A DNA stretch of 64,000 nucleotides from an uncultured Gammaproteobacteria bacterium (GTDB taxonomy: Bacteria > Patescibacteriota > Patescibacteriia > Magasanikbacterales > GCA-002688135), in the NCBI GenBank assembly GCA_964536205.1, contig CAZHVT010000005.1:24076-88075 (forward strand), given 5' to 3'. The stretch's first letter is position 1. Each line of letters opens with the position of its first letter. The notes beneath the pieces are model-generated. The model ran no database searches. It had not been told where the DNA came from and worked only from the letters and a program-made list of their open reading frames with translations. Below are positions 32,852-58,401 of this stretch, one piece after another. Both the position numbers and the translations under genes were made by a program.

Positions 32852-32889
32852 GTATTATGGTGTAAAGTTAGATAAAAGTCAATTGGTGT

Positions 32890-33010
32890 TCGTAATGCGT
32901 AATTCGTAAAGCGTCATGCGGGCAATGAGTCGCCAGAGGCGACATATTTATACAGCGCCTGCGGCGATTCCTTATACCTCTTTACGCGTTACTCTTTAAC
33001 GCCTTACTAT
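32890..33010. repeat. Family B element between divergent genes. Arms CGTAATGCGTAATTCGTAAAGCGTCATGCG / CTCTTTACGCGTTACTCTTTAACGCCTTAC flank the GC hairpins GTCGCC-AGAG-GCGAC and CGCC-TGC-GGCG. A T-run and the ATG at 33016 follow.
   Basis: Direct reading. Confidence 0.75.
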
Positions 33011-33015
33011 TTTTT

Positions 33016-34002: not shown

Positions 34003-34003
34003 T

Positions 34004-35233: not shown

Positions 35234-35244
35234 GATTTATCTCA

Positions 35245-37827
35245 TCAGCCTGATTTCAATTCTCGAGATAGTGGACAGTCTTCATCCCAACGTGCTGGCA
35301 TTTTTGTCAGTTTTTTTGATTTTCCAGTTTCAAATACACATCTTAAAAATCCATCTGGGTTGATGTCGTCTATGTGGTTTTCAAAGTAGGGCTCCATCAT
35401 TTTGTATGCTTCTTCGTCTTGTGCGTATCCCGCCGCAAACAAGACTTCCTCATAATTTTGATATGTCCATGAATCTTTTCTTTCTACAATATACGCATTG
35501 AATAAAGCTTGGGTCTCCTCACTTGTGATTGCTATTTCTGGTTTTGTGAGAAATTCCGCGAACTGCTCGGTTTTGTCAGGATAACGTGCTTTGATTTGTA
35601 GTCCGATTTCGTGTGCCTTTTGATGATATCCAAAATTTTTCCATGTTTGCGCCTCTCGAATATATATTTCTGGTGTCACCCTCTGTCCAGCATTCTCAAT
35701 CATGAGTATAAGCTGACGAATGAACCGGGGTTCATGAAATCCATTCTCTGCGATGACTCGAGAGAGAAGATCTAAATCCAGAGCGCTTGTTGGTACAAAC
35801 TCTTGAAGTATAATTCCTCGATATACATCTTCCCATGCATCTGCTTTGTCTCCAGCACCATACTTAACTTTCCCCCGCTCCCACCAGACTCGGCCTACTG
35901 TGTCGTTGATAGCTATTGCTTGATCTATAAGTTCTAGTGCGCGATCTGTTTGTCCATTTTTTGCATATAGACTTGAGGCAATGAGATATAGCTGCTGTCG
36001 ATTTGGTGAGCGTTCTAGAATCTGCTGAAAACGCTCTTCAACAAACTGTTCCCATTTTGGATCGGGAAACATAAACGATGCGAGGTCAATCTCAATAAGT
36101 GCGATGTGTAATTCATTTGGTTGATTTTGATATGCTTCGTTTAATCCTTCGAGTGTTAGCTCGACAATCTCTTTGAGCTCTTCTTTTGGATACTGTTGTT
36201 GCCATATTGGTAATCGTCCATGAACCTTTCGTCCAATGTCCAGACGTATATCTGCGATATGCGGAGTTTCAAATTCATACGAAGCTTTGATGAGTTGTTT
36301 TGCATTGACTGGACCTTGTTGATGCAATGCTGCCAATACTTTCAGGACAGCTGCGTTTGCTTGGGATGGTTTGATGTTGATCTCAAAAATAAATGCTAGT
36401 GCAACCACGGAAACAATGGCGCATGTTATCCCAATTTTTTTTGACTGCGCTGGGGATGTGTGTTCCTCGTATACTCTTTTTGGTCTTGTGATTTCGTAAA
36501 TGAATGCGAGTGTTAGGAAAAGTGTTATGAATGAAATTGGGGTATCAAATACAAACATCTTGGAAAAGAAATCTGTAAATAAAAGTGCATAGCCTGCGTA
36601 TATTTTCTTTTTGTGTGCAGGATTTTCTTCTTTAAGTCGCCATAACATCATGAATGCTGCGATGTATAATCCTAGATAGCCGATGATTCCGAAAATTCCG
36701 GCGGTTGCTAATGTATTGAAAAGTACGTTATGAGCATTATCAAACCAAGATTCATAATATGAGTTTGATAGTGATTCTGGAATGAGATGTTTGTTGAATG
36801 CTGCGTAGAAATTTTCATGACCCCACCCGAAAAGTGGTTTTTCTTTCCATGCTGAAACTGATGTTTTCCATGCTGCGATTCGCGGACCGGAATCGCTTGT
36901 GATATCTGCCAATCGACTTACTCCTCTAACTTTTTTTAGAGCATCGTTTGCCGGAGAAAACCACACTATTCCAACCACTATAATAATAAGAGCTACAATT
37001 CGTATCCCCCATTTTCTGACGTGAGTGTGTTCTTTGAGAACCGCGATTAATCCGGTGACAAAAATTCCCGCAAGAAGACCAAGAATCGCGCCACGACTTC
37101 CAGAATACAATAAGAGCAATCCACTAAGCGCTATGATTGCCCCGAGTAGTGTTTTTTTGAATTTGTTTTTTTCTAGGAAGAACAGCATGGCTGCGACGAT
37201 CATACTGATTGCCATGAAGTTTCCGAGATAAATGAAATTACCAAGTGTTGAAAAAACCCTTCCTCCGCCTTCGTTGAATAAAACTCCGTTTCCGTATCGT
37301 TGAGCTAATCCGACAATTGATATAACGACTGATATGAGCATGAAGATCCACCACAATGATCTCCACCCAATCAATTTAATAGCTGTTGCTCTTTCTCCTT
37401 TCCATCCCCGAACTGAAAGCCCAATGAGAAAAAACCACAGTGCGTAATGCATGATTGAGATGAGTCCAAGCATACGCTCATGTCCACCCCAAAATGATCT
37501 GTGTGGATCTACTCCAAAAAAAGAGGAAAGTCCGAGAGATATAATATACAGAATTACCGCGTAGTGAATGAGTGATAACTTGTATCGAATTTGTTTGTTA
37601 TATAATGCGACGATTATTAGACATGCGGCTGCTATTATAGTCACTACACGCAGGAAAATCACCTTTGGAAAGATGAAGGGGAAAATGAATTTTGATGGAA
37701 TTACGATGAGTGGTGTGAGGAGCGCGACCAATACATATGCTGCACCTACTAAATACAATAAACGAAGACCCTTGTTTTTGGGTCTTTTTTCTGGGGATTT
37801 CTGAGTATCTGTGGTATCTGTGTTCAT
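35245..37827 (-). CDS. O-antigen ligase family (Wzy_C; WaaL/PglL-like) polytopic membrane protein with a C-terminal TPR-repeat domain.
   Basis: Wzy_C hallmarks SGSRGAILGLLAG, FGWGHENF, NAHNVLFNTLATAGIFG. About 12 TM helices, then a soluble helical-repeat domain. It is a paralogue of the three genes at 40205..46933. Confidence 0.65.
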   Translation of the reverse strand: MNTDTTDTQKSPEKRPKNKGLRLLYLVGAAYVLVALLTPLIVIPSKFIFPFIFPKVIFLRVVTIIAAACLIIVALYNKQIRYKLSLIHYAVILYIISLGLSSFFGVDPHRSFWGGHERMLGLISIMHYALWFFLIGLSVRGWKGERATAIKLIGWRSLWWIFMLISVVISIVGLAQRYGNGVLFNEGGGRVFSTLGNFIYLGNFMAISMIVAAMLFFLEKNKFKKTLLGAIIALSGLLLLYSGSRGAILGLLAGIFVTGLIAVLKEHTHVRKWGIRIVALIIIVVGIVWFSPANDALKKVRGVSRLADITSDSGPRIAAWKTSVSAWKEKPLFGWGHENFYAAFNKHLIPESLSNSYYESWFDNAHNVLFNTLATAGIFGIIGYLGLYIAAFMMLWRLKEENPAHKKKIYAGYALLFTDFFSKMFVFDTPISFITLFLTLAFIYEITRPKRVYEEHTSPAQSKKIGITCAIVSVVALAFIFEINIKPSQANAAVLKVLAALHQQGPVNAKQLIKASYEFETPHIADIRLDIGRKVHGRLPIWQQQYPKEELKEIVELTLEGLNEAYQNQPNELHIALIEIDLASFMFPDPKWEQFVEERFQQILERSPNRQQLYLIASSLYAKNGQTDRALELIDQAIAINDTVGRVWWERGKVKYGAGDKADAWEDVYRGIILQEFVPTSALDLDLLSRVIAENGFHEPRFIRQLILMIENAGQRVTPEIYIREAQTWKNFGYHQKAHEIGLQIKARYPDKTEQFAEFLTKPEIAITSEETQALFNAYIVERKDSWTYQNYEEVLFAAGYAQDEEAYKMMEPYFENHIDDINPDGFLRCVFETGKSKKLTKMPARWDEDCPLSRELKSG

Positions 37828-37870
37828 GAGAGACAGTATAGCATATATTCCATTTTTTGATGTTAATGCC

Positions 37871-37899
37871 TTGACAATCGAGGTTTTCTGTGCTAAATT
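37871..37899 (+). promoter_or_regulatory. Sigma70-type promoter TTGACA-N17-TAAATT, with an AAAGGGGGTG Shine-Dalgarno 5 nt before the ATG at 37956.
   Basis: Direct reading. Confidence 0.4.
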
Positions 37900-37955
37900 A
37901 CAGGCACGTAGCGTTCATTAAAACGTGAATTAGAACTTCAAAAAGGGGGTGCTTC

Positions 37956-40169
37956 ATGCAACGCTTGAGCCTCATGACCGCACTGCTTTTGGTGTGTGCA
38001 TGTCAAACAGATTTCAACCAAGCTGATTATTGTGCTTCGAATCCGGATCATCCGGACTGTCCGCAACTCTTTGTCAGCCAGGATACAGATACATCAGCTG
38101 ATGGGGTTGTCACGGTCGATGATTCTGTTTTCACTGATGATGCAATGCATATTGATACTTCTCCAGACATCATCGTGACTGATACTGATGTTGATCCAAC
38201 AGGAGAGGAAGAGGTTTCTGACACAGAAGATTCGTCTGACACTGATCAAGAAATTGATGAGCCTGACGTTCCTGATGTTGATGATACTACTGACGCTCCT
38301 GATGTCACAGATACTTCCGACACTGCCGATACTGATTCTGGTGACGGTGATGTTGAGGATATTGAGAGTGATGGTGATTTATCTACTGATGATACTTCGG
38401 ATGCTGACACAGATTCAACTGATGACAGCGATGTTGTTGAGCCTGAGTGTGTGATCGACTCCGATTGTGAGTATCTTAACGAGAACCTGTGCAACGGGTC
38501 GTGGAAATGTGTTGAAGGCGAATGTGCATTCAGTGAGAAGATCGTTGATTGTTCTAAAACCGAAACTCTTCCCTGCTATATTTCAGTGTGCGAACCGTCT
38601 GATGGTACGTGCCAAGCGCAAAAGACTGAGGATGGTGTGTCGTGTAATGATAGCGATCCTTGTACGGAAAATGATGTCTGTACTTCAGGCTCATGTGCTG
38701 GTGATCCAATCACCTGCCCGTGTCTAGATGATGCGGATTGCATTGAGCTTGAGGACGACGATTTGTGTAATGGTACGCTTGCGTGTGTTGACGGCGATTG
38801 TACGCTTGATCCAACAAGCGTGGTTGTCTGCAAGGATAGCCTTACCTGCGAGACCGAGACATGTATTCCTGCTTCAGGCGAATGTTCCTCGACACCAGTC
38901 ATCTGCAACGATGATGTGGGCTGTACGATTGATGTTTGCGTGGAGGACGTAGGATGTACATTTACTGCTGATCATCCGTCGTGTGACGATGGTGATGATT
39001 GTACGGTGAATACCTGCAACACAAACAGCGGCTGCTCTGCGATTCCATCGTTTTCACCTTGTGATGACGAGGATCCATGCACAAAAGATGATACATGCAC
39101 AAAGGATCTTGCGTGCGTTGGGGTCGACATTGATTGTGACGATCTCAATCCCTGCACAAACGATTCCTGTCAGAATGGCGATTGTCTATTCACACCACAT
39201 ACCAATGAGTGTGATGATGGTGACCCTTGCACGATCAATGATGTTTGCCAGAGCAGCGTATGTGAAGGTGAGCTGGTGTGTGAGTGTGAGGGCAATGCAG
39301 ATTGCGCAGATAAAAATGACTTGAATCTGTGTAATGGTTCATACATGTGTGACAAATCCACTGCGGTTTGGACATGTGAAATTGATCCGTCTTCGATTGT
39401 CAATTGTCCTGATCCAATCGGACAATGCCTTGTGACAAGCTGTGTGCCAAGTACTGGTGCGTGCGTTGAATCATTCGCTCCAAGCAGCACGCCGTGTGAC
39501 GATGGCGATGCATGTACGGACAGCGACGTTTGTGCAATCAATGGAAGTTGTGGGGGTTCTAATAAAACCTGCAACGACGATAACCCATGCACTGACGATA
39601 GCTGTGATTCGAGCTTGGGTTGTGTCTATAAGATTTCTGCACCAAAACCCTGCGATGATGGCAATGAGGACACCGTTACTGATGAGTGTTCTGGCGGCCT
39701 TTGCTCAGGAGTTGTTCTCTTCAAAGAATTCTTCAATGAAGGTGCTCCTGCTGACTGGGATTTTGATCAAAATGCCGATGGTTCGATCATCTTTGATGTT
39801 ACTAATGACGAGTGGAATGACGATCCCTCAAATTTCTATTTGGGTGTGTGGATCATTTCTGAAATCACACTTACTGAAACCCTTATGTTGAGTGTCACGC
39901 TCCCAGAGCTCCCCATTCCGAACAGCGAAAGTCCGAAACTTTCGTTTGTGCGGTGGGGCGGCATGGCATGTGGCGTTGGCAATCTTCACTGGCATGTAGA
40001 CGACGAACTTGTCGATGGTTCCTGTGGTAGCGAGAGTGACATCGGGACATTCGTCCCACTTGATCCTTCACATGATTTTGCGACTGTTGTTTTCACCTTT
40101 ACGATTCAGCCTGGTACGCATAGTCCTGGGCTCAAGTATCGTATCGACAACGTGAAAATGAATAAGTAG
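37956..40169 (+). CDS. Secreted or lipoprotein-type cysteine-rich repeat protein. It has a signal peptide ending LLLVCAC, a roughly 130-aa poly-acidic D/T/S/E linker, about 14 'CxDxxPCTxDxC' repeats and a C-terminal beta-sandwich-like domain.
   Basis: Repeats such as CDDGDPCTINDVCQSSVCEG, CNDDNPCTDDSCDSSLGCVY and CDDLNPCTNDSCQNGDC. They resemble Dictyostelium-type CTDC repeats or Myxococcus cysteine-rich repeats. Family assignment from memory is tentative. Confidence 0.6.
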   Translation: MQRLSLMTALLLVCACQTDFNQADYCASNPDHPDCPQLFVSQDTDTSADGVVTVDDSVFTDDAMHIDTSPDIIVTDTDVDPTGEEEVSDTEDSSDTDQEIDEPDVPDVDDTTDAPDVTDTSDTADTDSGDGDVEDIESDGDLSTDDTSDADTDSTDDSDVVEPECVIDSDCEYLNENLCNGSWKCVEGECAFSEKIVDCSKTETLPCYISVCEPSDGTCQAQKTEDGVSCNDSDPCTENDVCTSGSCAGDPITCPCLDDADCIELEDDDLCNGTLACVDGDCTLDPTSVVVCKDSLTCETETCIPASGECSSTPVICNDDVGCTIDVCVEDVGCTFTADHPSCDDGDDCTVNTCNTNSGCSAIPSFSPCDDEDPCTKDDTCTKDLACVGVDIDCDDLNPCTNDSCQNGDCLFTPHTNECDDGDPCTINDVCQSSVCEGELVCECEGNADCADKNDLNLCNGSYMCDKSTAVWTCEIDPSSIVNCPDPIGQCLVTSCVPSTGACVESFAPSSTPCDDGDACTDSDVCAINGSCGGSNKTCNDDNPCTDDSCDSSLGCVYKISAPKPCDDGNEDTVTDECSGGLCSGVVLFKEFFNEGAPADWDFDQNADGSIIFDVTNDEWNDDPSNFYLGVWIISEITLTETLMLSVTLPELPIPNSESPKLSFVRWGGMACGVGNLHWHVDDELVDGSCGSESDIGTFVPLDPSHDFATVVFTFTIQPGTHSPGLKYRIDNVKMNK

Positions 40170-40175
40170 CTTACG

Positions 40176-40208
40176 AGCAGGCCTCCCATATCGGGAGGCC
40201 TTTTTTAT
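40176..40208. terminator. Bidirectional rho-independent terminator between convergent genes.
   Basis: AGGCCTCCC-atat-CGGGAGGCCT followed by TTTTTTATT. Confidence 0.7.
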
Positions 40209-42370
40209 TCTATCAGATTGTGTCTTTGCAGAAATTCCCCTGCACGTATCCTTACCTCTTCGTATGCGTCTGTTCGATTAAACCCTTGATCTTCGAGATA
40301 CCTTATGGCTGACACCACAAGAGGCTTATCATAACCATCAACCGTGACTATCTGTTCAACGTTAAACCAATTCTTTTCTGTAAATGGATCCAAAAGTAGT
40401 AGCCGCGTAAACGCATATGTGAGAACGTCAGCTCGCTCAAGCTCAACTGCGACACGCGCGATGTGCTCCAGCTCTGGAATGTTCGCTGTTTGAAACGGGT
40501 TTTTCATGTTTATTGCTGTATGAAGCGCATCCAATCCTTCGCTTTTTTTATCTGTATACGTGAGAATTAATCCCTGTAAGTAATGTGATTGTGATAAGTT
40601 TGGCCCGAGCCGAACAGCTTCATCAAGTATTGCAACAGCCTTCTCATATTCTTCTGTGAGTACATATAAATTTGCTCGCTGAAATAGCACTGATACTCGT
40701 AGTGGCGCAAGTGCTGAAGCGTGTGCAAGTACAGCATCTGCTTCCGCTGCAAATGATGTGTCGATAATGTAACTTGCTTTTGTTAATAAGTTTCCAAGCG
40801 TGAAGTAATATTCAAATCTATCTGGTGATCGTTCTATGCCTGCTTTCATTACATCGATGCCTGATTGTAGTAACCGCGCAACTTCTGGATTATCCCGATC
40901 CGCTCGTTCAAACATAACGTTCGCATATCGCTGCGCGAGAGAATTCTGATGCGGCGACCATTTTCCCAGAACAGTTTGTGCGAGTTCTATTTCAGGTTTT
41001 CCAATGTTGCTCTGTTGTATCATCAACATTGTTTGAGATCTTTGGATTGCATGTGAAGATGCCCATAAAGTTGGTATTGATAATAGAACAACAACTATTA
41101 CTGCAATACCGCCCTTAACTTCTGCGTCTCTTTTTTGTGAATTTACTCCTAATAGTGCTGCGAATAATACGAACAACATTGTAGTTGCCGGCGAATCAAA
41201 TGAGAATATTGCTTGTACTGCATATGTTACGAGCAATCCCAACCATATAACTGATGTCATTTTTTCATTTTCTTTTTCTTGTGTAACAGCGCGTAGCATT
41301 GCCAATAGCAAATATATGAGGATGAGTAGTCCTACTATTCCCTGCATTACCAGAGCATCGACATACATGTTGTGTGCGCGATCAGAGTATGTTTGATTAA
41401 ATCCGAATCGTGTGAACAATGGATTGAAGTGCTGGTTGAATGCATAATCAAATGTTTCTGGTCCCCACCCAAAAATTGGTTTTTCTAATGATGCCTGTAT
41501 ACCGGAATTCCAAAGAATGAGTCGTTGATTTGCACTCGATTCTGAAATTGAAATGTGTAGTATACGATTGAGTGCTTTGATTTTTTTGATTGCTGCTGTA
41601 TCGCGCGCTGCCCACAAACCTCCGATTATGAGCGTTACAGCGATCGCTATAACAGCAAGTCTCTTTTTTTGTTTCCGGGTTTTTGGCCTGAATCCGTATG
41701 CGATGATCGCGATAATAGCTACAACTAATCCTACAATTACACCGCGAGTTTGTGTGAGATAAATTCCTGCCCCTGAAACAATTGCCGAAAGCAATGCAAC
41801 CACCTTCCATCTTTTATCTGTCTCCTGAAAAAATCTTTCTAGAGCAAAAAATAATGGAAAGATTGCAACGTTTGCATATAACAGTGGATTTCCAAAAAGC
41901 GATTCTGCGCGATGTCCATAACCAAATTGTACGACCTCTGAAATTACTTTCAGGATGGCTATGTTTCCCATCATGATGACAAACCATATGAGAAATCGTT
42001 TTTTGTTTTGTTCTTTTACTATGTTTGATAAAAGTATGTACAGAATCCATATCCATAACCAAACCCATAATCCAAATCCGCGCGTGTCGGTTCCCCATAA
42101 ACTTTGTAATGGATCTACGCTTGAGATTGTAGATAAGATCATTGAAATTACAAATAGCGAAAGTGCGATTGTAATGTGATTGCGCGGTATGCTTAATTTT
42201 CTTTGTGCAAACATTAATATCGGCGCAAGAACCGCAAACAGCATCACAAAAAAGAGTGTCTTACCGTTTGTGTGCGGGAATAGCATTCCTGAAGGCACAA
42301 CGACTATTGAACACAATACCAAGGCAACTAGCCAGTGATTGTAATGTTTTATTGTTTCACGCCATTTCAT
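40205..42370 (-). CDS. O-antigen ligase family (Wzy_C) membrane protein with a C-terminal TPR domain.
   Basis: TQTRGVIVGLVVA, FGWGPETF and an HN..L..G-type loop, then TPR-like helical repeats. Confidence 0.65.
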   Translation of the reverse strand: MKWRETIKHYNHWLVALVLCSIVVVPSGMLFPHTNGKTLFFVMLFAVLAPILMFAQRKLSIPRNHITIALSLFVISMILSTISSVDPLQSLWGTDTRGFGLWVWLWIWILYILLSNIVKEQNKKRFLIWFVIMMGNIAILKVISEVVQFGYGHRAESLFGNPLLYANVAIFPLFFALERFFQETDKRWKVVALLSAIVSGAGIYLTQTRGVIVGLVVAIIAIIAYGFRPKTRKQKKRLAVIAIAVTLIIGGLWAARDTAAIKKIKALNRILHISISESSANQRLILWNSGIQASLEKPIFGWGPETFDYAFNQHFNPLFTRFGFNQTYSDRAHNMYVDALVMQGIVGLLILIYLLLAMLRAVTQEKENEKMTSVIWLGLLVTYAVQAIFSFDSPATTMLFVLFAALLGVNSQKRDAEVKGGIAVIVVVLLSIPTLWASSHAIQRSQTMLMIQQSNIGKPEIELAQTVLGKWSPHQNSLAQRYANVMFERADRDNPEVARLLQSGIDVMKAGIERSPDRFEYYFTLGNLLTKASYIIDTSFAAEADAVLAHASALAPLRVSVLFQRANLYVLTEEYEKAVAILDEAVRLGPNLSQSHYLQGLILTYTDKKSEGLDALHTAINMKNPFQTANIPELEHIARVAVELERADVLTYAFTRLLLLDPFTEKNWFNVEQIVTVDGYDKPLVVSAIRYLEDQGFNRTDAYEEVRIRAGEFLQRHNLIE

Positions 42371-44670
42371 AATGTTGGAATTACATCAAAGTCCTTATGT
42401 AAATCTAAAATCACATCTGTTTGATCGTCACGCTCCATTTCCGGCAATTCCGCTATAAACAGTTCTGCTTCAGCCCTGAAACTTTCGTCTAGTGATACCG
42501 CAGTTTGTGCTGCTAGCTTTGCACTGTGCGCATACCCACCCTCCTTAAGATAGATTGCGTATTCAGCCCACGCTGTAGCTTTTCGAATGTTTCCTTCAAT
42601 ATGCATTATCTGCCAATACACCACGAGTGCCAGATCATACTCTTTATGCTCGAGCAAAATTCCCGCTGTTAATTTTTTTTGAGCACCTTCTACAGGAATA
42701 TGCCCCAACTCAATTGCCTCGATTAACTCTTTAACCCCCTCCTCATCCTGATCAAGCGTCAAAAGTGATAATCCGTAATACCAATGCCCGAGCCCAACTT
42801 TTTCTGATAAATCATGCGCCTGCTTATATGACTTATGAGCTGTGATGGGATCACCTGCATCAACGTATAATTCTGCGAGGGCAAATAGGTATTGCTGTCT
42901 TTCTGATTTTTTTATTGCGTCATTGAAGTACTCAATTCCCTTTTGCGCGTATTTTGGATTTTTCTTTGCAGCAGTGTAGTACAGAACACCATTTAAATAG
43001 GTATGATATGAATCATGTTTGTGATCGATGATATTTTTCAGACCAACCTGTTCAGCTTTTGTGATGAATTGCTCTGCTTCTGCATCGCTATATACGCCCG
43101 CCTGCAGAGCCCGAATCACATTCTTTACATACTCATTTCGTGACTCTGTTTTGTATGGTGATTGCATGTCGAGCACTCCTTGCAATCTCGGAGTAGCCTG
43201 CAGACGGGAATGTTCTGCGGCAAATACAAGTGTGTTGATGAGTGCAGAAGATTCTTTCATTGGTTGATATGCATATCGATATACGCCCATGAGTCCGACT
43301 AACATTGCTATACCGAACACAACCATTTTTTGTCCCTTAATTATTTCATTATCAATCTCCTGTATCTCATTTTTTTCGTACAGTAACATTATCGCAAATA
43401 ATAGAATGAGTGACACTGCGGTGTCGAATGAGAACATGAGGTGAACCATGTAGGCTGCGAGTGTTGCGATAGCTACAATGTTGACCGGTTTTTTCCAACG
43501 ACTGGATTGCCATAATTGATATAAAAATCTCAACATCAAAGCCGCGTATGCAAGTAAGCCAATTACACCTCCTGTTACCAGTAGTTCTACGATTATGTTA
43601 TGTGCGCGATCAAATCGAGTTTCTGCAAATCCTAAATACAGTGAATCGGGATTGTAGTTGACATCAAATGCTGCGATGAATGATTCTTGTCCCCATCCAA
43701 GGATTGGTTTTTGTTTGAAGGATTCCCATCCGCTTTTCCATGCATTTACACGAGAGACGAGCGAGCTATCTTGCAATGTTGTGACGCCAACTAATCTACC
43801 GATTAATGGAACTTTTTTCTCGATTGATTTGTGGAATATTAGTACAAGCGAGACGAGCAGCAGACCTGAAATAATACATCCTATTGCCGCGTGTCTGATT
43901 ATTTTTCTTTTTGAGCTTAATGTTACAAGCATGCCCGCAATTACCGCACCAACAATAAATCCTATAGCCGCTCCCCTTGTTTGCGTGAAAAACATGATGA
44001 GAGTTTGGAATAATGCGAGTGCTGCGAATGCAAATTTATGTGAACGTTTTTCGTGGGTGAAAAATCCATAGCCGGCGATTCCAATGTATAAAATTAGCAT
44101 TCCTGCAAAAAAGATTGGGTTTGCGATAGTTCCCGAAATTCGCAGACCTGTGTCTACGCCAAATAACACAATTCCTTTGAGACGAGCCAGTGCAATAAGA
44201 GACACCACTAATCCAGATACAGAAATTATTTGTGTGAGTCGTTTGTAATCTTTTGTGGTCGTGTGCGTAGCTCTCGTTAATACAAACCACAACCAGATTT
44301 GCGTGAGGGTGAGTAAGCCTGTTCCGCGCGATTGTGTTCCCCAAAAACTTCGCGAGAGATCAACTCCAAAAAGCGATGAGATCCACGCGGTCGCGAGATA
44401 TATTGAAAATAGTAAGGTTATTGGATTTTTAAGAATGGAGGTTATTTTTTTGCGCTGATCTGGAAAAGTGATCAACACAACCCATATAACTAATAATGCA
44501 ATTGTTGTTGTATGCAAAAAAAGTGTCTTTCCAAACATGAATGGATAGATCACAGATGGTAGTACAACCAGCGGCATGAGCGCCACTGTGAGTCGTGATA
44601 TCCATCTACTGTAATTGATGAGGTTGAATTTATTCATCGGTAGGTTGTGTCGCAGTTTTGATGCGAGCAA
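42367..44670 (-). CDS. O-antigen ligase family (Wzy_C) membrane protein with a C-terminal TPR domain.
   Basis: TQTRGAAIGFIVG, LGWGQESF, RAHNIIVELLVTGGVIG. Its start overlaps the upstream stop by 4 nt. Confidence 0.65.
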   Translation of the reverse strand: MLASKLRHNLPMNKFNLINYSRWISRLTVALMPLVVLPSVIYPFMFGKTLFLHTTTIALLVIWVVLITFPDQRKKITSILKNPITLLFSIYLATAWISSLFGVDLSRSFWGTQSRGTGLLTLTQIWLWFVLTRATHTTTKDYKRLTQIISVSGLVVSLIALARLKGIVLFGVDTGLRISGTIANPIFFAGMLILYIGIAGYGFFTHEKRSHKFAFAALALFQTLIMFFTQTRGAAIGFIVGAVIAGMLVTLSSKRKIIRHAAIGCIISGLLLVSLVLIFHKSIEKKVPLIGRLVGVTTLQDSSLVSRVNAWKSGWESFKQKPILGWGQESFIAAFDVNYNPDSLYLGFAETRFDRAHNIIVELLVTGGVIGLLAYAALMLRFLYQLWQSSRWKKPVNIVAIATLAAYMVHLMFSFDTAVSLILLFAIMLLYEKNEIQEIDNEIIKGQKMVVFGIAMLVGLMGVYRYAYQPMKESSALINTLVFAAEHSRLQATPRLQGVLDMQSPYKTESRNEYVKNVIRALQAGVYSDAEAEQFITKAEQVGLKNIIDHKHDSYHTYLNGVLYYTAAKKNPKYAQKGIEYFNDAIKKSERQQYLFALAELYVDAGDPITAHKSYKQAHDLSEKVGLGHWYYGLSLLTLDQDEEGVKELIEAIELGHIPVEGAQKKLTAGILLEHKEYDLALVVYWQIMHIEGNIRKATAWAEYAIYLKEGGYAHSAKLAAQTAVSLDESFRAEAELFIAELPEMERDDQTDVILDLHKDFDVIPTL

Positions 44671-46933
44671 TTAAATCTGTTACTTGCGGTTCTAATACTG
44701 CGTCTAATTCAAGCGCTGTCATTGCATCTGTTCGCGCAATTGAAAATGCTTCCAGATTATATGCAGCATAAGCCTTTCGCAAAAAGTTGTGCCCTGTTTT
44801 GAGATGTGGATTTTCTTGTGAGAGATTTAGAACAACATTGAGCTGTTGAAATGCCGCCGTGTAATCCCCTACTTCCTCCAGCAATACAAGAATTAAATCG
44901 AGTGTATCGTGTGACATGCGTGGCAGATATCGTCCATCTCTGATTAGTTGAGCTGCGACAAGCCCTGCCTCATGTGTTTGTTCTTGAGCTGACATTATGA
45001 TCACGCGCGTCCATTGAAAATCATTGTTTGAAGGGACATGTAATACGATTGTGTCGACTAGTTCGCGCGCTTTTTCGAGCTGCCCTGTTTGCATATAATA
45101 GTTCATCTGGTTGATGTCTACTGTTTGTCTGTCTGGTGATAATGCTCGTACATCATCATAATCTTTTTCTATCGTATCTTTGAATTTCTCTGTATCAACA
45201 TGTTCTATAGAAAGCGCCTTGAGCTGAACCTCTCGCAATTGCATTGCATATCGCGGTGCGTATGTTTCGTTATACTGTGCAAATCCGTTTAGCAGTATAG
45301 GGATCCCTCTCACAAAAAATTCTTTCGGTAGTGCGCCAGTATTATTATTTACTAAATCGTCAGTTAATATTTTCAATGTGTCTGTTTGTGTCATTGACTG
45401 TATCGCCAGAACGGAAGTCAATTTTTTTTCATACCCTTCAATATCTCCTTGTTCGAACGTATTTCTTACCTCTTGAACTTGTTTTGCTTCCATCCATGGT
45501 TTTAGAATCAATACAAACAACACAGCAACCGCAGCGAGAGTGATTACTATTTTACTTGAAACCCCCCGCGTCCAGTTTGGCAATTCTTTTGACTTCTCTA
45601 CTGCAGCTCCCAAACCTACGATAAGTGCGAGATGCAGAATGAGTGATGGGGTATTAAAAGCAAATAGCCCGAAGCCTGCATATGCACCCATTATCCCGGC
45701 TGTAAATATTCGCAATGTTTCCTGCTCTTTAGTTTTTGACTTTACCAAAAGAGGTGAGATGATCAGTAATAAATATACAAGTAATCCGATTAAACCGGTT
45801 GTAACCGCAACTTCGAGCAATTGATTATGTGCGCGTTCGGTCCATGTTTCTTGTAGACCAAACTGCGCTACTTCTTTTTTGTAATGCGTATCAAATACTG
45901 TTTCGTACATTTCATGTCCCCAACCGAGGAGTGGTTTTTCTTTGATACCATCTAATGCGGATGACCAAAATAACAAACGCGTTGAGATTCCTCCTTGTGA
46001 GTCGAGTTGCTCAAACCAGTACATTGGATGATATGGTCTTTGTGCTTGTTGATCTGCTGGAGTGAAAGCTAATAGATATACAAAAGCTGTTACACAAAGA
46101 AGGGCTGCCACAGCAAATCTTTTAATGATAACGTGAAGTTTTGAACTTCGAGTTTGAAGATATGCGAGCCCCATCAACACTAGACCGATAATAACACCCA
46201 CCTGTGACCCTCTTGAACCCGTTCCCCACACACCAAATATCGCGAGTACTATCCCGACCATGACTGCCTTTTTAATCCAGCGGGTTTTTTCGAGGCGTAC
46301 GTGCAATCCCATGAGAAACAGACTCATTAACACGTATGCTGCTAGATATGTTGAGCTGCCCCACAATCCAGTTAATTTTATTCTAACAAATCCGTAATAC
46401 TGATCCCATCCTATTCCTTCTGTTCCCACTATTGCGTTGAAAAATTCTGGTGCGAATTGTACAAGAATTGCCAGTCCAACCACAATCACAGCGGCGAGTG
46501 ATTGCATTCTTAAAATAAATAATCTTTTGTTACTTGTATTTGCCCACCAACTTAACCACCACGCAAATCCTATCATCAATATCCACATCCATGCGCCGTT
46601 TAATCTTAAGGCATCTCCCAACAACCCCTTTATGGGATCTCCTAGAAATGACCATGCCACTACCACGATCCCATACAATGTCAACATTAACAGCCCGAAG
46701 TTTTTTCCGTGTGAGAGTGGTTCGTTTGTTTTATTTTTTTTCAGCCATGTGTAAATGAGGAGAAATGTGATTACTCCTGCAATCAGCAGCCATTTACCTA
46801 CATGGCCTTCATATATGAGTGATGGCGTTGTGATTACAGGAAGCAAAAAAACCGCGGCAACACAACCGCGGATTATCCAATTTTTTGTAACTTTAGTGTT
46901 GTTTTCACTCATGTTGATGGATTTACAATCCAA
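44630..46933 (-). CDS. O-antigen ligase family (Wzy_C) membrane protein with a C-terminal TPR domain.
   Basis: TGSRGSQVGVIIG, LGWGHEMYE, RAHNQLLEVAVTTGLIG. An alternative start MSENNTK lies at about 46912. Confidence 0.65.
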   Translation of the reverse strand: MDCKSINMSENNTKVTKNWIIRGCVAAVFLLPVITTPSLIYEGHVGKWLLIAGVITFLLIYTWLKKNKTNEPLSHGKNFGLLMLTLYGIVVVAWSFLGDPIKGLLGDALRLNGAWMWILMIGFAWWLSWWANTSNKRLFILRMQSLAAVIVVGLAILVQFAPEFFNAIVGTEGIGWDQYYGFVRIKLTGLWGSSTYLAAYVLMSLFLMGLHVRLEKTRWIKKAVMVGIVLAIFGVWGTGSRGSQVGVIIGLVLMGLAYLQTRSSKLHVIIKRFAVAALLCVTAFVYLLAFTPADQQAQRPYHPMYWFEQLDSQGGISTRLLFWSSALDGIKEKPLLGWGHEMYETVFDTHYKKEVAQFGLQETWTERAHNQLLEVAVTTGLIGLLVYLLLIISPLLVKSKTKEQETLRIFTAGIMGAYAGFGLFAFNTPSLILHLALIVGLGAAVEKSKELPNWTRGVSSKIVITLAAVAVLFVLILKPWMEAKQVQEVRNTFEQGDIEGYEKKLTSVLAIQSMTQTDTLKILTDDLVNNNTGALPKEFFVRGIPILLNGFAQYNETYAPRYAMQLREVQLKALSIEHVDTEKFKDTIEKDYDDVRALSPDRQTVDINQMNYYMQTGQLEKARELVDTIVLHVPSNNDFQWTRVIIMSAQEQTHEAGLVAAQLIRDGRYLPRMSHDTLDLILVLLEEVGDYTAAFQQLNVVLNLSQENPHLKTGHNFLRKAYAAYNLEAFSIARTDAMTALELDAVLEPQVTDLIARIKTATQPTDE

Positions 46934-46936
46934 ATT

Positions 46937-48529
46937 TTATGAAGGAATTGGTGACACGGAAACCGCTATTTGGTCTATCTTGACACCATCTACGGTTGCA
47001 GTCAAGATCGAGGTTCCTGCCTCATTTGAGGAGAAAATACACTTCACTTTTCCGCTTGTTGTTTTTCCGTTGTCGCATTCTATGTTGTCGATGGATCCTC
47101 TGTTGCTCGATAGCCCGGCATCAAGTCCTGACAAAAATTCACCTTTGTAGTTTTTTGCAAATAATGTGATGGTCACTTCTTCCACCCCCCCAACTAGAAT
47201 TGGCGAGGGTGTTTGCTCTGTGTAACTTTTTTTCGCATCCGCTTTTGCCTCATCTAGATCTGCTTCAAATGTGACTTTGGGGAAATCTGAAATTATGAGA
47301 TCGCCAATTTTTGCTACCAATGTTCTCTCACCTGCTTGAGATGCAGTGAGGTATATAATGACCAATCCTTGATTGTTTGTTGTTGATCCAGCTGCAAATT
47401 CAATTACATCTGTTGAGTTTCCTGTATCAATTTCAACCTCGCGACTCCTTAGTAATGTGTTGTCCGATGATCGCGCTATAATATTCACAACAACCGTATC
47501 TACTAGATTTGCCGTAGCTGATGTTCTGGTTGTTGTGACAGCTGATCTGGTTGGTGAGACTTTTGAAATACTTTCTAGATCAGCAGTGAATGATATGTCT
47601 GTTTTTTTGTCCTCGCTTACCTCAATTGTTTCATGGATGGTGTTATATCTCTGTCTTACTACTTCTGCAAAATATGTTCCTGGCATGACCGCGAAATTTA
47701 CTTTTGTAGCATTTATGATATGTGTTGCATCTCGCGCAACCGCTCCGATTTCTTGTGCGATCTTTGTTCGCGCTCTGTCTGTGTAGAGCGTCACCTTGGT
47801 GTCACTGATAAGTGTCCCAGCTGTATTGACTACTGAAATACTTGCACGTGATTGCAATGCTCCGCATGATATAGCGGAACCGCTTTTTACGCATGATCCA
47901 GAGCCTTTAAATGAGACTGATTTTGTAGACTTGTCATTTACCGAAATTACCCCAAGCAGACCGTCCGTTGTTTGTGATTGAGGAAGATATGTTGGATGTC
48001 CAATTTCTAGTGCGCCGATATTTTGAGCTGCAAAATAGTAAGCCCCGCCAGATGCATGTCTTGCAGAAGCTCCTTCATAAAAAATATCTGCATTGGTGAT
48101 TGATGTTCCGTCTTCATCGTACGGACGAACAACGAGCGTGTAAGCCAGCGTGATTGTTTCTGATGATATGTCAAAGTTTTTGTCTGCTTGAATGTTGCCT
48201 AGATCAACTGAACCAGAAGACACAAAACCTGGCGAAGAAAATGTTGCCGTACAGTGAGTTGAGGTTTCGGTGTGATCGTAAAATAATTCGACATTATATC
48301 TATTTGGAATGGTTGTATCAGCTTTTACTAATCCTGTTTTGTGTATGTTGCACGTCGCAAGATGAACCTGTGGTGCTCGATCAAAAGAATTTCCAAATTG
48401 ATCTGTTGCTGAAAAATGTAAGTTTATTGATCTTTCTTGTGCACTTGCTGTATGTGCCCAGAAAAAAAGCATTGCTGTCGCACAGACAAAAATAAACGCT
48501 TTTGAGACTCGAGATACTGCAATAGACAT
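46937..48529 (-). CDS. Secreted protein with Ig-like and carboxypeptidase-regulatory-like beta domains. The start is set at MSIAVSRV… (a signal peptide), not at the upstream ORF extension.
   Basis: Signal peptide AFIFVCATAMLFFWAHTASAQ. Beta-rich repeats. Promoter-like TTTACC-N18-TATACT upstream of the ATG at 48529. Confidence 0.5.
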   Translation of the reverse strand: MSIAVSRVSKAFIFVCATAMLFFWAHTASAQERSINLHFSATDQFGNSFDRAPQVHLATCNIHKTGLVKADTTIPNRYNVELFYDHTETSTHCTATFSSPGFVSSGSVDLGNIQADKNFDISSETITLAYTLVVRPYDEDGTSITNADIFYEGASARHASGGAYYFAAQNIGALEIGHPTYLPQSQTTDGLLGVISVNDKSTKSVSFKGSGSCVKSGSAISCGALQSRASISVVNTAGTLISDTKVTLYTDRARTKIAQEIGAVARDATHIINATKVNFAVMPGTYFAEVVRQRYNTIHETIEVSEDKKTDISFTADLESISKVSPTRSAVTTTRTSATANLVDTVVVNIIARSSDNTLLRSREVEIDTGNSTDVIEFAAGSTTNNQGLVIIYLTASQAGERTLVAKIGDLIISDFPKVTFEADLDEAKADAKKSYTEQTPSPILVGGVEEVTITLFAKNYKGEFLSGLDAGLSSNRGSIDNIECDNGKTTSGKVKCIFSSNEAGTSILTATVDGVKIDQIAVSVSPIPS

Positions 48530-48597
48530 AGAGTATTCTTGAATATATACATCAGTAGTATAGCAGATTTTCTCACAATCGGTAAACAAAAACAAAA

Positions 48598-48640
48598 CCC
48601 CCTCGCAAAAGGGGGTTTGTTTGGGTAATGAAACCCGACG
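48598..48640 (-). terminator. Rho-independent terminator of the giant surface-protein gene.
   Basis: On the minus strand: AAACCCCCT-tttgcg-AGGGGGTTT followed by TGTTTTTGTTT. Confidence 0.7.
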
Positions 48641-48646
48641 GTCGAA

Positions 48647-52321: not shown

Positions 52322-52342
52322 ATAGAATATCTTTCTTTGCAA

Positions 52343-54099: not shown

Positions 54100-54101
54100 G
54101 T

Positions 54102-58400: not shown

Positions 58401-58401
58401 C

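What the first reader, a model, noticed from the sequence alone, without database searches (positions are those of the whole stretch)
37956..40169. Compositionally distinct gene for a poly-acidic, Dictyostelium/Myxococcus-type cysteine-repeat exported protein
The 737-aa product has a signal or lipoprotein-type leader (…LLLVCAC) and a roughly 130-residue D/T/S/E-only linker. It has about 14 tandem repeats of the form C-x-D-x-x-P-C-T-x-D-x-C-x3-5-C, then a C-terminal beta-sandwich-like domain. The repeat pattern closely resembles the Dictyostelium CTDC repeat or the Myxococcus cysteine-rich repeat known from extracellular matrix proteins. This family assignment is from memory and tentative. The gene is noticeably GC-richer than its Wzy_C neighbours. 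It has a near-consensus promoter, a strong G-rich Shine-Dalgarno sequence and its own terminator. It could be an extracellular matrix or metal-binding scaffold, or the O-glycosylation substrate of the flanking enzymes.
Basis: partly seen in the sequence, partly recalled or inferred. Interest (0 to 1): 0.55.

Follow-up and report, generated by a model that had tools for sequence, protein, structure and literature searches.

The report
Cysteine-repeat surface lipoprotein of a Parcubacterium
This real gene in an uncultured marine candidate-phyla-radiation bacterium probably encodes a membrane-anchored surface fibre with an acidic tether, a disulfide-rich stalk and a binding head. It always sits among O-antigen-ligase-like genes, so it is a candidate attachment or glycoprotein factor, not an ordinary housekeeping gene.

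Summary
ORF 37956-40169 (+) encodes a 737-aa protein with these parts:
- a lipoprotein-type leader
- a 129-aa polyacidic Ser/Thr-rich linker
- a 421-aa cysteine-rich region
- a C-terminal all-beta domain

It has its own promoter, Shine-Dalgarno sequence and terminator, and all three are conserved in orthologous loci.

The repeat family guess is half right. Pfam Dicty_CTDC matches just above threshold (28.8 vs 27 bits), and there are over 1,000 homologues, mostly from Myxococcota-type MAGs. The Myxococcus repeat and DUF4215 models do not match. I count 8 canonical plus 1 degenerate CTDC unit and three larger 9-10-Cys modules, not 14 repeats.

The GC excess (0.47 vs 0.42) comes mainly from amino-acid composition. 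The apparent codon difference from the neighbours is a strand effect.

The host is a Patescibacteria (CPR) bacterium. Only about seven related proteins exist among 1.84 billion representatives. All share the leader, linker and rare C-terminal jelly-roll (MAM/CBM/Eph-LBD-like), carry 4-17 repeats, and lie beside a Wzy_C-TPR gene.

Best reading: a lipid-anchored adhesin or lectin fibre, functionally coupled to the surrounding surface-glycan machinery and possibly its O-glycosylation substrate. It is a new variant of a known repeat family, of moderate interest.

The parts
37871..37899 (+). Sigma-70-type promoter: TTGACA, 17 nt, TG-extended TAAATT
   Evidence: Scan (10 of 12 matches). The -35 hexamer and the TGTGCTAnnTT block are conserved in orthologous loci L004 and L005.
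37943..37951 (+). Shine-Dalgarno sequence AAGGGGGTG, ending 4 nt before the ATG
   Evidence: Sequence. The orthologues have AAAGGAGGTGCTTCATG at the same place.
37956..40169 (+). CDS for the 737-aa Cys-repeat lipoprotein (stop codon included)
   Evidence: An identical protein was found in ENA, JGI and NCBI assemblies, on six contigs in all, three of them shown.
37956..38003 (+). Residues 1-16: signal peptide ending in the lipobox V-C-A-C (C16 is the predicted lipidated Cys)
   Evidence: Alignment with family members that carry LAAC, ILGC or TISC at the same position. Lipidation itself is inferred.
38004..38060 (+). Residues 17-35: conserved N-terminal mini-motif TDFxQADYCxxxPxHPxC with a two-Cys loop (C26, C35)
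   Evidence: Invariant T18, D19, F20, Q22, A23, D24, C26, H32, P33 and C35 in the orthologues. A similar motif is present in P0071, P0122 and P0020.
38061..38447 (+). Residues 36-164: polyacidic, Ser/Thr-rich, Lys/Arg-free linker, presumed disordered
   Evidence: D+E 39%, S+T 26%, K+R 0%. Its composition is conserved in all 7 family members but its sequence is not.
38442..38642 (+). Residues 163-229: first 'CNG' module (9 Cys)
   Evidence: All Cys are invariant in the orthologues.
38643..38714 (+). Residues 230-253: CTDC unit 1
   Evidence: Motif match.
38715..38903 (+). Residues 254-316: second 'CNG' module (10 Cys)
38904..39278 (+). Residues 317-441: CTDC units 2-6
   Evidence: Motif matches at 317, 343, 369, 394 and 419. 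AF2 pLDDT is 85-90 for units 3-6.
39279..39494 (+). Residues 442-513: third 'CNG' module (10 Cys)
   Evidence: This is the most conserved block between the family and the Myxococcota homologues. AF2 pLDDT is about 90.
39495..39710 (+). Residues 514-585: CTDC units 7 and 8, plus a degenerate unit 9 that lacks the second Cys
   Evidence: Best Pfam Dicty_CTDC stretch at residues 538-558..
39711..40166 (+). Residues 586-737: C-terminal beta jelly-roll head domain with one Cys pair (C672, C690)
   Evidence: AF2 pLDDT 77.8, pTM 0.75. Foldseek matches to MAM, gingipain cleaved-adhesin, CBM4/22/61 and Eph ligand-binding domains at E about 2e-4 and TM 0.45-0.63. Only 7 representatives reach E<1e-3 among 1.84e9 proteins (5 true members); a sixth representative, P0020, was recognised by alignment.
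40179..40207 (+). Intrinsic terminator: 9-bp stem (7 GC), 5-nt loop and T-run
   Evidence: Conserved with compensatory stem changes in L004 and L005.
35245..37827 (-). Divergent partner gene: 860-aa Wzy_C + TPR membrane protein with a ~190-aa C-terminal extension
   Evidence: Wzy_C E 1.2e-20. It is divergently adjacent in all 7 family members. The extension is absent from typical ~680-aa CPR homologues.
40205..46933 (-). Three further Wzy_C-TPR genes (721, 767 and 767 aa), convergent with the gene
   Evidence: Wzy_C E 1e-21 to 1e-22. The same arrangement is present in L004, L005 and L009.
46937..52342 (-). Conserved cluster members: a 552-aa Big_1/Invasin_D3 protein and a 1231-aa signal-peptide, Cys-free, S/T/A-rich surface (S-layer-like) protein
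   Evidence: Also present in L004 and L009.

Best explanation
The gene encodes a cell-surface fibre of an uncultured marine Patescibacteria (CPR, Parcubacteria/Magasanikbacteria-like) bacterium.

Proposed mechanism:
1. A Sec/lipoprotein leader exports the protein and anchors it by Cys16 to the outer face of the cytoplasmic membrane.
2. A 129-residue polyanionic Ser/Thr-rich segment, free of Lys and Arg, acts as a flexible, self-repelling tether through the wall and S-layer zone.
3. A 421-residue disulfide-stapled stalk follows. It is made of 8-9 Dicty_CTDC four-Cys beta-hairpin units interspersed with three 10-Cys 'CNG' modules, and forms an elongated spacer.
4. A ~150-residue jelly-roll head of the MAM/CBM/Eph-LBD structural class at the distal end binds a ligand, most likely a glycan or protein on another cell (the host of the epibiont) or on a particle.

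The stalk module is shared with, and was probably acquired long ago from, Myxococcota-type bacteria. The leader, linker and head are specific to a small CPR family in which stalk length varies (4-17 units).

The gene is a fixed member of a surface-glycan cluster. It is always divergent from a Wzy_C-TPR enzyme that has a family-specific C-terminal extension. Its function is therefore coupled to that machinery, most plausibly through O-glycosylation of the Ser/Thr-rich tether.

Shown here: gene reality, architecture, family, predicted folds, synteny and conserved expression signals.

Inferred: export, lipidation, disulfides, rod shape, ligand binding and glycosylation.
For: - Real, constrained gene. 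The orthologues are 68% and 46% identical, with all 70 Cys invariant. Promoter, SD and terminator are conserved. The identical protein was found in several independent assemblies.
- Lipobox. The family alignment places canonical LAAC, ILGC and TISC boxes at the position of VCAC.
- Linker. Length 96-130 aa, D+E 25-41%, S+T 18-26% and K+R 0-3% in all 7 members, although the sequence is not conserved.
- Stalk. Dicty_CTDC is detected in all 7 members and is above threshold in 3. There are 1295 homologues. AF2 with a 39-sequence alignment gives pLDDT 85-94 over the stalk with pTM only 0.44, as expected for an elongated multi-module rod.
- Head. It is all-beta, and Foldseek's top matches are ligand-binding jelly-rolls (MAM 5l73/8yt7, Kgp cleaved adhesin 4itc, CBM4 3p6b, CBM61 2xom, Eph LBD 3nru) in two independent models.
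- Host. The orthologue MAG11578.1 and contig NZCD01000031.1 are named 'Parcubacteria group bacterium'. All named homologues of the neighbouring Wzy_C gene are Patescibacteria.
- Coupling to the glycan cluster. Wzy_C flanks 7 of 7 distinct family members but only 1 of 79 other CTDC loci from the metagenome scan. The partner's C-terminal extension is family-specific.
- Precedents. Wzy_C-family O-oligosaccharyltransferase genes usually sit next to their target protein gene and modify flexible low-complexity segments (PMC3643930). Dicty_CTDC is listed among the N-terminal domains, collectively described as adhesion modules, of bacterial teneurin-like proteins (bioRxiv 10.1101/2025.11.11.687626).
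Against: - There is no experimental datum for any bacterial Dicty_CTDC protein in the searchable literature.
- The Pfam score is only 1.8 bits above threshold, and four family members fall below it.
- The head model has moderate confidence. Its structural matches are generic (TM about 0.5, 8-18% identity), and there is no sequence-family hit, so ligand type is unknown.
- The lipobox has an unusual Cys at -2. Lgt/LspA and a disulfide-forming system could not be looked for, because only 64 kb of the genome is available.
- The four Wzy_C proteins show no PglL_A hit at E<=1. They could instead serve the 1231-aa S-layer-like protein or a lipid acceptor.
- In the linker, Asp positions are more conserved than Ser/Thr positions. 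This favours 'charged spacer' over 'sequon array'.
- The CPR assignment rests on MAG naming and neighbour homology, not on a marker-gene phylogeny.
Confidence: 0.55

Rival explanations
1. Glycan-carrier lipoprotein. The protein's main role is to be the membrane-anchored acceptor onto which the four Wzy_C ligases attach polysaccharide. This would give a monoderm CPR cell a lipoglycoprotein coat, functionally analogous to LPS or lipoglycan. The Cys stalk and head would be secondary.
For: Strict synteny with Wzy_C genes inside a glycan island of more than 50 kb, with about 10 glycosyltransferases, epimerases, methyltransferases, MBOAT and PMT-type GT-C enzymes. The tether has about 34 Ser/Thr. 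CPR have no lipid A, so their Wzy_C enzymes need another acceptor (my own knowledge). There is a precedent of O-OTase genes lying next to their targets.
Against: This reading does not explain why a 420-aa disulfide stalk and a rare, conserved head domain are maintained with every Cys invariant. The Ser/Thr positions are not conserved. PglL_A motifs are absent. The S-layer-like 1231-aa protein is an equally good acceptor.
Confidence: 0.2
2. Self-directed organiser. The head binds the cell's own glycan or S-layer, which is the product of the surrounding cluster. The protein would then tether or space the envelope layer from the membrane instead of binding a foreign cell.
For: The jelly-roll head resembles carbohydrate-binding modules, and P0020 has a weak CBM60 hint (E 0.0098). 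The gene is embedded in the cluster that makes the glycan and lies beside an S-layer-like gene.
Against: Repeat number varies 4-17 between relatives. This implies very different reach, which is odd for a fixed-distance envelope strut. The ligand is unknown.
Confidence: 0.12
3. Extracellular matrix or divalent-cation (Ca2+/metal) binding scaffold, as the first reader proposed by analogy with Dictyostelium EcmA/EcmB matrix proteins.
For: Net charge is about -148 and pI about 4, with 123 Asp. The D-D-G-[DN] loops in every CTDC unit look like cation-binding loops (inference from the sequence only).
Against: A lipid anchor and a single terminal head fit a cell-bound fibre better than a secreted matrix. 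No metal-binding family is matched. Cation binding would be compatible with, not an alternative to, the fibre model.
Confidence: 0.08
4. A recently acquired foreign passenger gene with no integrated role. The GC excess would mark a fresh horizontal transfer.
For: GC is 0.47 against 0.42. The nearest non-orthologous relatives are in high-GC (mean 0.64) Myxococcota-type contigs.
Against: The gene keeps the same position, orientation and expression signals in relatives down to 26-46% identity. The GC excess is mainly at second codon positions, and the same excess is seen in the orthologues. The codon 'difference' is a strand effect. Any transfer of the stalk module was ancient.
Confidence: 0.03

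Closest known systems
Bacterial Dicty_CTDC (PF00526) cysteine-rich repeat proteins of Myxococcota-type MAGs (~1200 aa, annotated 'hypothetical' or 'cysteine-rich repeat protein')
   Same: They share the same two alternating CTDC unit types and the same 'C-x-C...DC...LCNG' module. Identity is 42% on average over a 245-aa segment (32% with Cys columns excluded). Many also have a lipoprotein-type leader and a variable C-terminal domain such as PPC, LamG, C-type lectin or Gly-rich.
   Different: The window protein is shorter and sits in a low-GC CPR genome. It has a 129-aa polyacidic tether and a head domain that my HMM of that domain found in none of the 79 other CTDC loci of the metagenome scan. 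It is Wzy_C-linked, whereas those loci are not (1 of 79). None of these proteins is characterised.
Dictyostelium EcmA/EcmB and prespore-coat proteins (the founding Dicty_CTDC members)
   Same: Tandem ~24-residue four-Cys repeat recognised by the same Pfam model. All are extracellular.
   Different: They are eukaryotic secreted matrix proteins, with no lipid anchor, acidic tether or jelly-roll head. Their function in stalk-tube matrix is stated from my own knowledge and was not tested here.
PglL/PilO/PglS-type protein O-glycosylation pairs (a Wzy_C-family O-oligosaccharyltransferase next to its target gene)
   Same: A Wzy_C-family gene lies immediately adjacent to a gene for an exported protein that has a flexible low-complexity Ser/Thr-bearing segment.
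   Different: The orientation is divergent, not co-directional. There are four Wzy_C paralogues with TPR domains. No PglL_A motif is present, the target is not a pilin, and the host is a monoderm CPR. Activity is untested.
S-layer glycosylation (slg) clusters of Gram-positive bacteria
   Same: Nucleotide-sugar genes, glycosyltransferases and a Wzy_C-type ligase are clustered with a gene for a large Cys-free surface protein (paper PMC2943079 listed, not read in detail).
   Different: Here an additional Cys-rich lipoprotein is embedded between the ligase genes. The S-layer nature of the 1231-aa protein is only inferred from its composition.
Membrane-anchored 'jelly-roll head on a Cys-rich stalk' receptors and adhesins (Eph receptor ectodomain, MAM-domain proteins, gingipain cleaved-adhesin domains)
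   Same: The head domain's best structural matches belong here. The overall logic is a binding head held away from the membrane by disulfide-rich modules.
   Different: There is no sequence relationship (8-18% identity) and the stalk modules differ. This is an analogy of design, not family membership.

Membership tests
Pfam Dicty_CTDC (PF00526) | Whole-protein HMM score at or above the gathering threshold (27 bits) | tested here: met
   28.8 bits, E 1.1e-6, 3 stretches. This is a borderline pass. Family members score 17.3-47.6 bits, with 3 of 7 above threshold.
Pfam Dicty_CTDC (PF00526) | Tandem ~24-residue units with four regularly spaced Cys | tested here: met
   8 canonical units of 23-27 residues with C-x5-C-x4/5-C-x4/5-C spacing, plus 1 degenerate unit. 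Shuffles give 0.18.
Pfam Dicty_CTDC (PF00526) | Homology to proteins that match the model strongly | tested here: met
   P0004 is hit at E 1.7e-153 and itself scores 107 bits on Dicty_CTDC.
Pfam Dicty_CTDC (PF00526) | Disulfide-bonded extracellular fold | not testable with these tools
   A leader is present and the AF2 stalk pLDDT is 85-94.
Myxococcus cysteine-rich repeat (TIGR02232) / DUF4215 (PF13948) | Match to the family HMM | tested here: not met
   No NCBIfam family at E<=1. No Pfam family other than Dicty_CTDC at E<=1.
Bacterial lipoproteins (Lgt/LspA substrates) | N-terminal positive n-region, hydrophobic h-region and lipobox [LVI][ASTVI][GAS]C within about 25 residues | tested here: met
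   MQR-LSLMTALLL-VCAC. The -2 Cys is unusual, but relatives have LAAC, ILGC and TISC at the aligned site. No dedicated predictor was available.
Bacterial lipoproteins (Lgt/LspA substrates) | Lgt and LspA encoded in the genome | not testable with these tools
   Only 64 kb of the genome is in hand, and none of the ORFs scanned is Lgt or LspA.
Substrates of Wzy_C-family protein O-oligosaccharyltransferases (PglL/PilO type) | Gene adjacent to a Wzy_C-family gene | tested here: met
   7 of 7 distinct family members. The precedent is 21 of 31 pglL genes next to their target.
Substrates of Wzy_C-family protein O-oligosaccharyltransferases (PglL/PilO type) | Neighbouring enzyme carries PglL-specific motifs (PglL_A/PglL_B) | tested here: not met
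   No PglL_A hit at E<=1 for any of the four Wzy_C proteins. PilO also lacks these motifs, so this does not exclude O-OTase activity.
Substrates of Wzy_C-family protein O-oligosaccharyltransferases (PglL/PilO type) | Ser/Thr in a flexible low-complexity segment | tested here: met
   The 129-aa linker has S+T 26%. The individual Ser/Thr positions are not conserved.
Substrates of Wzy_C-family protein O-oligosaccharyltransferases (PglL/PilO type) | Covalently attached glycan | not testable with these tools
   This needs mass spectrometry or a glyco-competent expression assay.
MAM / CBM4-22-61 / cleaved-adhesin / Eph-LBD jelly-roll class (structural class of the head) | Fold similarity to solved members | tested here: inconclusive
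   Foldseek E about 2e-4, TM 0.45-0.63 and 8-18% identity from two models. This supports the fold class but no particular family.
MAM / CBM4-22-61 / cleaved-adhesin / Eph-LBD jelly-roll class (structural class of the head) | Sequence-profile membership in one of these families | tested here: not met
   No Pfam hit at E<=1 in the window protein. The only hint is a sub-threshold CBM60 match in P0020 (E 0.0098).

The most novel reading that the evidence does not exclude
This small family is the host-recognition fibre of a marine clade of ultrasmall CPR epibionts. Its disulfide stalk was captured from contact-dependent predatory Myxococcota, its length is tuned by repeat number (4-17 units), and its tether is O-glycosylated by the adjacent TPR-bearing Wzy_C enzymes. 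That would be the first candidate protein O-glycosylation system, and the first non-pilus attachment device, in Patescibacteria.
Probability: 0.15. Interest if true: 0.75.

Novelty: new variant of a known kind. Interest (0 to 1): 0.45.

Why it matters
How ultrasmall CPR bacteria recognise and hold on to their hosts is largely unknown; a preprint found (10.1101/2024.11.25.624915) says so explicitly, and so far only type IV pili have been implicated.

This locus offers a concrete, testable candidate. It is a lipid-anchored, length-variable, disulfide-rich fibre with a rare binding head, hard-wired into the cell's surface-glycan cluster.

It also gives a purpose to test for the puzzling multiplicity of 'O-antigen ligase'-TPR proteins in bacteria that have no LPS. 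In addition, it documents a cross-phylum sharing of an uncharacterised repeat module that occurs in more than a thousand Myxococcota-type proteins.

If the reading is wrong, the finding is still a tidy example of a compositional 'anomaly' that is explained by amino-acid content and strand bias, not by foreign origin.

Tried and rejected
1. **Codon usage as evidence of foreign origin.** The gene avoids A-ending codons relative to its neighbours. However, every + strand gene in the window does the same (A3 about 0.2-0.3, against about 0.5 on the - strand). This is strand bias, so the argument is rejected.
2. **Sequence search of the PDB.** No hit at E<=1.
3. **NCBIfam.** No hit.
4. **Genome-collection scan with the C-terminal-domain alignment A4.** I repeated it with the three-orthologue alignment.
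5. **Metagenome scan.** The tool chose the generic CDDGxPCT motif and returned mostly non-family, high-GC loci. I reused them as a negative control for the Wzy_C linkage and for the head domain.
6. **Foldseek on the stalk plus head model.** Only the head finds meaningful matches. The Elapor1 'matches' covering the stalk have rmsd 38-48 Å and were discarded.
7. **My first regular expressions for 'head' modules and type-b CTDC units.** They miscounted and were replaced.
8. **Locus L083 (GC 0.345).** It looked like another low-GC family member but carries a different C-terminal region.
9. **Literature searches for any characterised bacterial Dicty_CTDC protein.** Nothing relevant.


Full report

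Yes. The window has an ATG-initiated ORF at 37956..40169 on the + strand, encoding 737 aa.

Protein composition:
- 70 Cys (9.5%), against 0.69% in the other 42 long ORFs of the window
- 123 Asp, only 20 Lys+Arg
- net charge about -148, pI about 4

N-terminus: MQRLSLMTALLLVCAC|QTDF.

Linker: the 129 residues between C35 and C165 have D+E 39%, S+T 26% and no Lys or Arg. Val, Pro, Ala and Gly are also present, so 'D/T/S/E-only' is too strong.

Cys-rich region (residues 163-585):
- Eight units fit C-x-[DN]-x3-C-T-x1-2-[DN]-x-C, starting at 230, 317, 343, 369, 394, 419, 514 and 539.
- One degenerate unit at 566 lacks the second Cys.
- 2000 shuffles of the same region gave 0.18 matches on average and never more than 3.
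- The remainder is three larger modules of 9-10 Cys (163-229, 254-316, 442-513). Each begins C-x-C-x3-DC and contains L-C-N-G-x3-C.
- At DNA level the units are only 63-87% alike over 20-30 nt, so the array is old and not a recent expansion.

**2. Expression signals**

- A promoter-like site TTGACA-17-TAAATT with an upstream TG lies at 37871-37899.
- A G-rich Shine-Dalgarno sequence lies at 37943-37951.
- A 9-bp (7 GC) hairpin plus T-run lies at 40179-40207.

Promoter-like sites in general are not enriched here (7 found, 7.7 expected). What makes these credible is conservation. In the orthologous loci L004 (68% protein identity) and L005 (46%), the -35 hexamer, the TGTGCTAnnTT block and AAAGGAGGTGCTTCATG are all retained. 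The terminator stem changes by compensatory substitutions. The gene is thus its own transcription unit, pointing against all its neighbours.

**3. Composition**

The gene's GC is 0.471, against a mean of 0.418 (sd 0.029) for 44 other ORFs (profile).
- The clearest deviation is at second codon positions (0.459 vs 0.365, z 2.5). This reflects amino-acid content: many Cys, Gly, Ser, Thr, Pro and Ala, and few Lys, Ile, Leu and Phe.
- GC3 is 0.415 against a mean of 0.369 (z 0.7). It is about 0.09 above what its own amino acids would give with the window's codon usage.
- The gene's avoidance of A-ending codons looked like a foreign signature. But every + strand gene in the window is T3-rich and A3-poor, and every - strand gene is the reverse. 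That is strand asymmetry.
- The same modest GC excess appears in the orthologues (0.458 vs about 0.40 in L004; 0.485 vs about 0.43 in L005).

The excess is an intrinsic property of the gene, not a mark of recent arrival.

**4. Repeat family**

- Pfam Dicty_CTDC (PF00526) is the only family matched at E<=1, at 28.8 bits against a cutoff of 27.
- NCBIfam gives nothing at E<=1. That library should include the Myxococcus cysteine-rich repeat model. No DUF4215 match appears in Pfam either.
- The borderline Pfam score is backed by homology. 1295 proteins match at E<=1e-3. Nearly all are about 1200 aa long, carry PF00526 and cover only the Cys-rich 55% of the query. Where named, they come from Deltaproteobacteria or Myxococcota MAGs.
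- One of them (P0004, E 1.7e-153) scores 107 bits on Dicty_CTDC.
- No solved structure matches by sequence. A 2021 survey lists Dicty_CTDC among repeat families without a known structure (PMC8078820).

**5. Who carries it**

- The exact protein occurs on a 264-kb ENA scaffold and on JGI contigs.
- Its 68% orthologue is NCBI MAG11578.1, 'Parcubacteria group bacterium'.
- Among one genome per 185,579 species, the only full-length relative is on NZCD01000031.1, 'Parcubacteria group bacterium isolate ARS125'.
- The neighbouring 860-aa Wzy_C gene has 106 homologues. Every named one is Patescibacteria: Ca. Magasanikbacteria, Parcubacteria, Pacebacteria.

The host is therefore a CPR bacterium. The stalk's nearest non-orthologous relatives, in contrast, sit in contigs of mean GC 0.64 attributed to Myxococcota-type organisms.

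Over a shared 245-aa segment the mean identities are:

| Comparison | Mean identity |
|---|---|
| CPR to Myxococcota | 42% (32% without Cys columns) |
| Within the CPR family | 50% |
| Among the Myxococcota proteins | 51% |

This discordance suggests an old horizontal acquisition of the stalk module. The direction of transfer is inferred from abundance only.

**6. A small family with a fixed design**

An exhaustive HMMER search with the C-terminal 154 residues found only 7 proteins at E<=1e-3 among 1.84 billion representatives. Two of these were repeat artefacts.

The true members are P0001/P0002/P0121, P0003, P0122, P0071, P0124, the fragment P0126, and P0020. They range from 493 to 1039 aa and all share:
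- a lipobox (LAAC, ILGC, TISC or VCAC)
- a short two-Cys motif (except P0124)
- a 96-130-aa acidic Ser/Thr-rich, Lys/Arg-poor linker
- a variable number of CTDC units (4, 4, 8, 8, 8, 10 and 17)
- the same C-terminal domain

All 70 Cys of the window protein are invariant in the two full-length orthologues.

**7. Predicted structure**

- The C-terminal region alone (8-sequence alignment) folds as an all-beta domain with pLDDT 77.8 and pTM 0.75.
- Residues 342-737 with a 39-sequence alignment give pLDDT 84.8, with 85-94 over the stalk. The pTM is only 0.44, which is typical of an elongated chain of small modules. Each CTDC unit is a pair of short hairpins.
- Foldseek against the PDB matches only the head. 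The hits are MAM domains (5l73, 8yt7, 8a28), the gingipain K1 cleaved-adhesin domain (4itc), CBM4, CBM22 and CBM61, and Eph receptor ligand-binding domains. Values are E about 2e-4, TM 0.45-0.63 and 8-18% identity.
- All of these are ligand-binding jelly-rolls. The class is supported, but no specific family is.

**8. Genomic context**

The window is a glycan island. It holds about ten GT2/GT4 enzymes, two PMT-type GT-C enzymes, epimerases, methyltransferases, an MBOAT, a deacetylase and an asparagine-synthase-type amidotransferase.

The gene lies between an 860-aa Wzy_C-TPR gene (divergent) and three more Wzy_C-TPR genes (convergent). These are followed by a Big_1/Invasin_D3 protein and a 1231-aa protein that has a signal peptide, no Cys and an S/T/A-rich composition. 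An ECF sigma factor and a DUF5667 protein lie upstream of the same-strand gene string.

Evidence that the context is conserved and specific:
- Wherever flanks are available, the order is kept in the 68%, 46% and even 26%-identity relatives.
- The most divergent member, P0020, keeps only the divergent Wzy_C partner.
- An HMM built from CPR Wzy_C-TPR proteins finds such genes beside all 7 distinct family members. It finds them within ±8 kb of only 1 of 79 other CTDC loci.
- The caveat is that this HMM may miss distant Wzy_C types.
- The partner enzyme has a ~190-aa C-terminal extension that ordinary ~680-aa CPR homologues lack.

**9. Mechanism**

I propose a lipid-anchored fibre with four parts: anchor, polyanionic tether, disulfide-stapled stalk and binding head. 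It would work as an adhesin or lectin and be functionally coupled to the glycan cluster.

Two published precedents bear on this:
- Wzy_C-family O-oligosaccharyltransferase genes usually sit next to their target gene and modify flexible low-complexity segments (PMC3643930).
- Dicty_CTDC is listed among the N-terminal domains, collectively described as adhesion modules, of bacterial teneurin-like proteins.

Points against glycosylation of this protein specifically:
- No PglL_A motif is present.
- Asp positions in the linker are better conserved than Ser/Thr positions.
- The S-layer-like neighbour is an alternative acceptor.

Export, lipidation, disulfide formation, rod shape, ligand binding and glycosylation are all inferences.

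**10. Verdict**

This is a real gene, accurately described, with the family guess half right. It is not an artefact and not a recent foreign insertion.

It is a new variant of a known but uncharacterised repeat-protein kind. It occurs in an unexpected phylum, has a rare head domain and shows an unusually strict link to Wzy_C-TPR genes.

Interest is moderate (0.45). It yields a testable candidate for CPR surface attachment or protein glycosylation, but nothing here is mechanistically demonstrated, and the family is confined to a few uncultured marine lineages.

Noticed in passing
whole window (e.g. 28319-37827 and 40205-52342 on the - strand, against 33016-35233 and 37956-40169 on the +): There is strong strand-dependent third-position bias. 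In four-fold codon families, - strand genes have A3 about 0.44-0.52 and T3 about 0.20, apart from the 1231-aa gene (T3 0.34). The + strand genes have A3 about 0.21-0.29 and T3 about 0.30-0.46. The same pattern appears in orthologous locus L004 and more weakly in L005. Any codon-usage comparison here must be made within a strand.
   Followed up: partly
window 11437-11970 (-): A 177-aa ORF with a DUF3228 match (E 3e-12) has GC 0.539 and GC3 0.629. It is a far stronger compositional outlier than the finding itself and may be foreign DNA.
   Followed up: no
window 37828-37850 (upstream of the - strand gene 35245-37827): The block GACAGTATAGCATATATT is conserved in all three orthologous loci. On the - strand it places a TATACT -10-like hexamer 7 nt before the ATG of the 860-aa Wzy_C gene, which suggests a leaderless or very short-leader mRNA.
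   Followed up: partly
window 48647-52342 (-): A 1231-aa protein with a signal peptide (…LTAQA|AVV), no cysteine, an S/T/A/D-rich composition and no Pfam match. It is conserved in the cluster (L004, L009). It is a candidate S-layer or major surface protein and an alternative substrate for the Wzy_C enzymes.
   Followed up: partly
window 52819-54656 (-): An ECF-type sigma factor (Sigma70_r2/r4) is followed by a DUF5667 protein, possibly an anti-sigma factor. They sit at the head of the - strand string that runs into the 1231-aa, Big_1 and three Wzy_C genes.
   Followed up: no
window 898-2268 (-) and 21719-23851 (-): Two PMT/PMT_2-type GT-C enzymes, the second fused to a GT2 domain. Enzymes of this type O-mannosylate secreted proteins and lipoproteins in Actinobacteria (my own knowledge). 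They offer a second possible route to glycosylating the Ser/Thr-rich tether.
   Followed up: no
window 35245-37827 (-), residues ~670-860: The Wzy_C-TPR partner has a ~190-aa C-terminal extension with no Pfam match. It is absent from typical ~680-aa CPR homologues but present in the 852-876-aa orthologues that neighbour the lipoprotein (the neighbour of the divergent member P0020 is 800 aa).
   Followed up: partly
window 57459-60251 (+): This stretch is also GC-richer (0.47-0.48) and encodes DHO_dh-like and phosphoribosyltransferase proteins. The ORFs 57459-58400 and 58042-59547 overlap by 359 nt, so the listed TTG start of the second (no Pfam match) is probably too far upstream, or that ORF is spurious.
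   Followed up: no
L008 2974-6093 (protein P0020), residues 963-1016: The head domain of the most divergent family member gives a weak, sub-threshold CBM60 (Ca-dependent carbohydrate-binding module) match (E 0.0098, 16.8 bits vs a cutoff of 28.2). This is a hint towards glycan binding.
   Followed up: no
L083 53-1300: A low-GC (0.345) metagenome contig encodes a CTDC array fused to a different, Asn/Gly/Leu-rich C-terminal region. Low-GC organisms other than this CPR family therefore also carry the repeat.
   Followed up: partly
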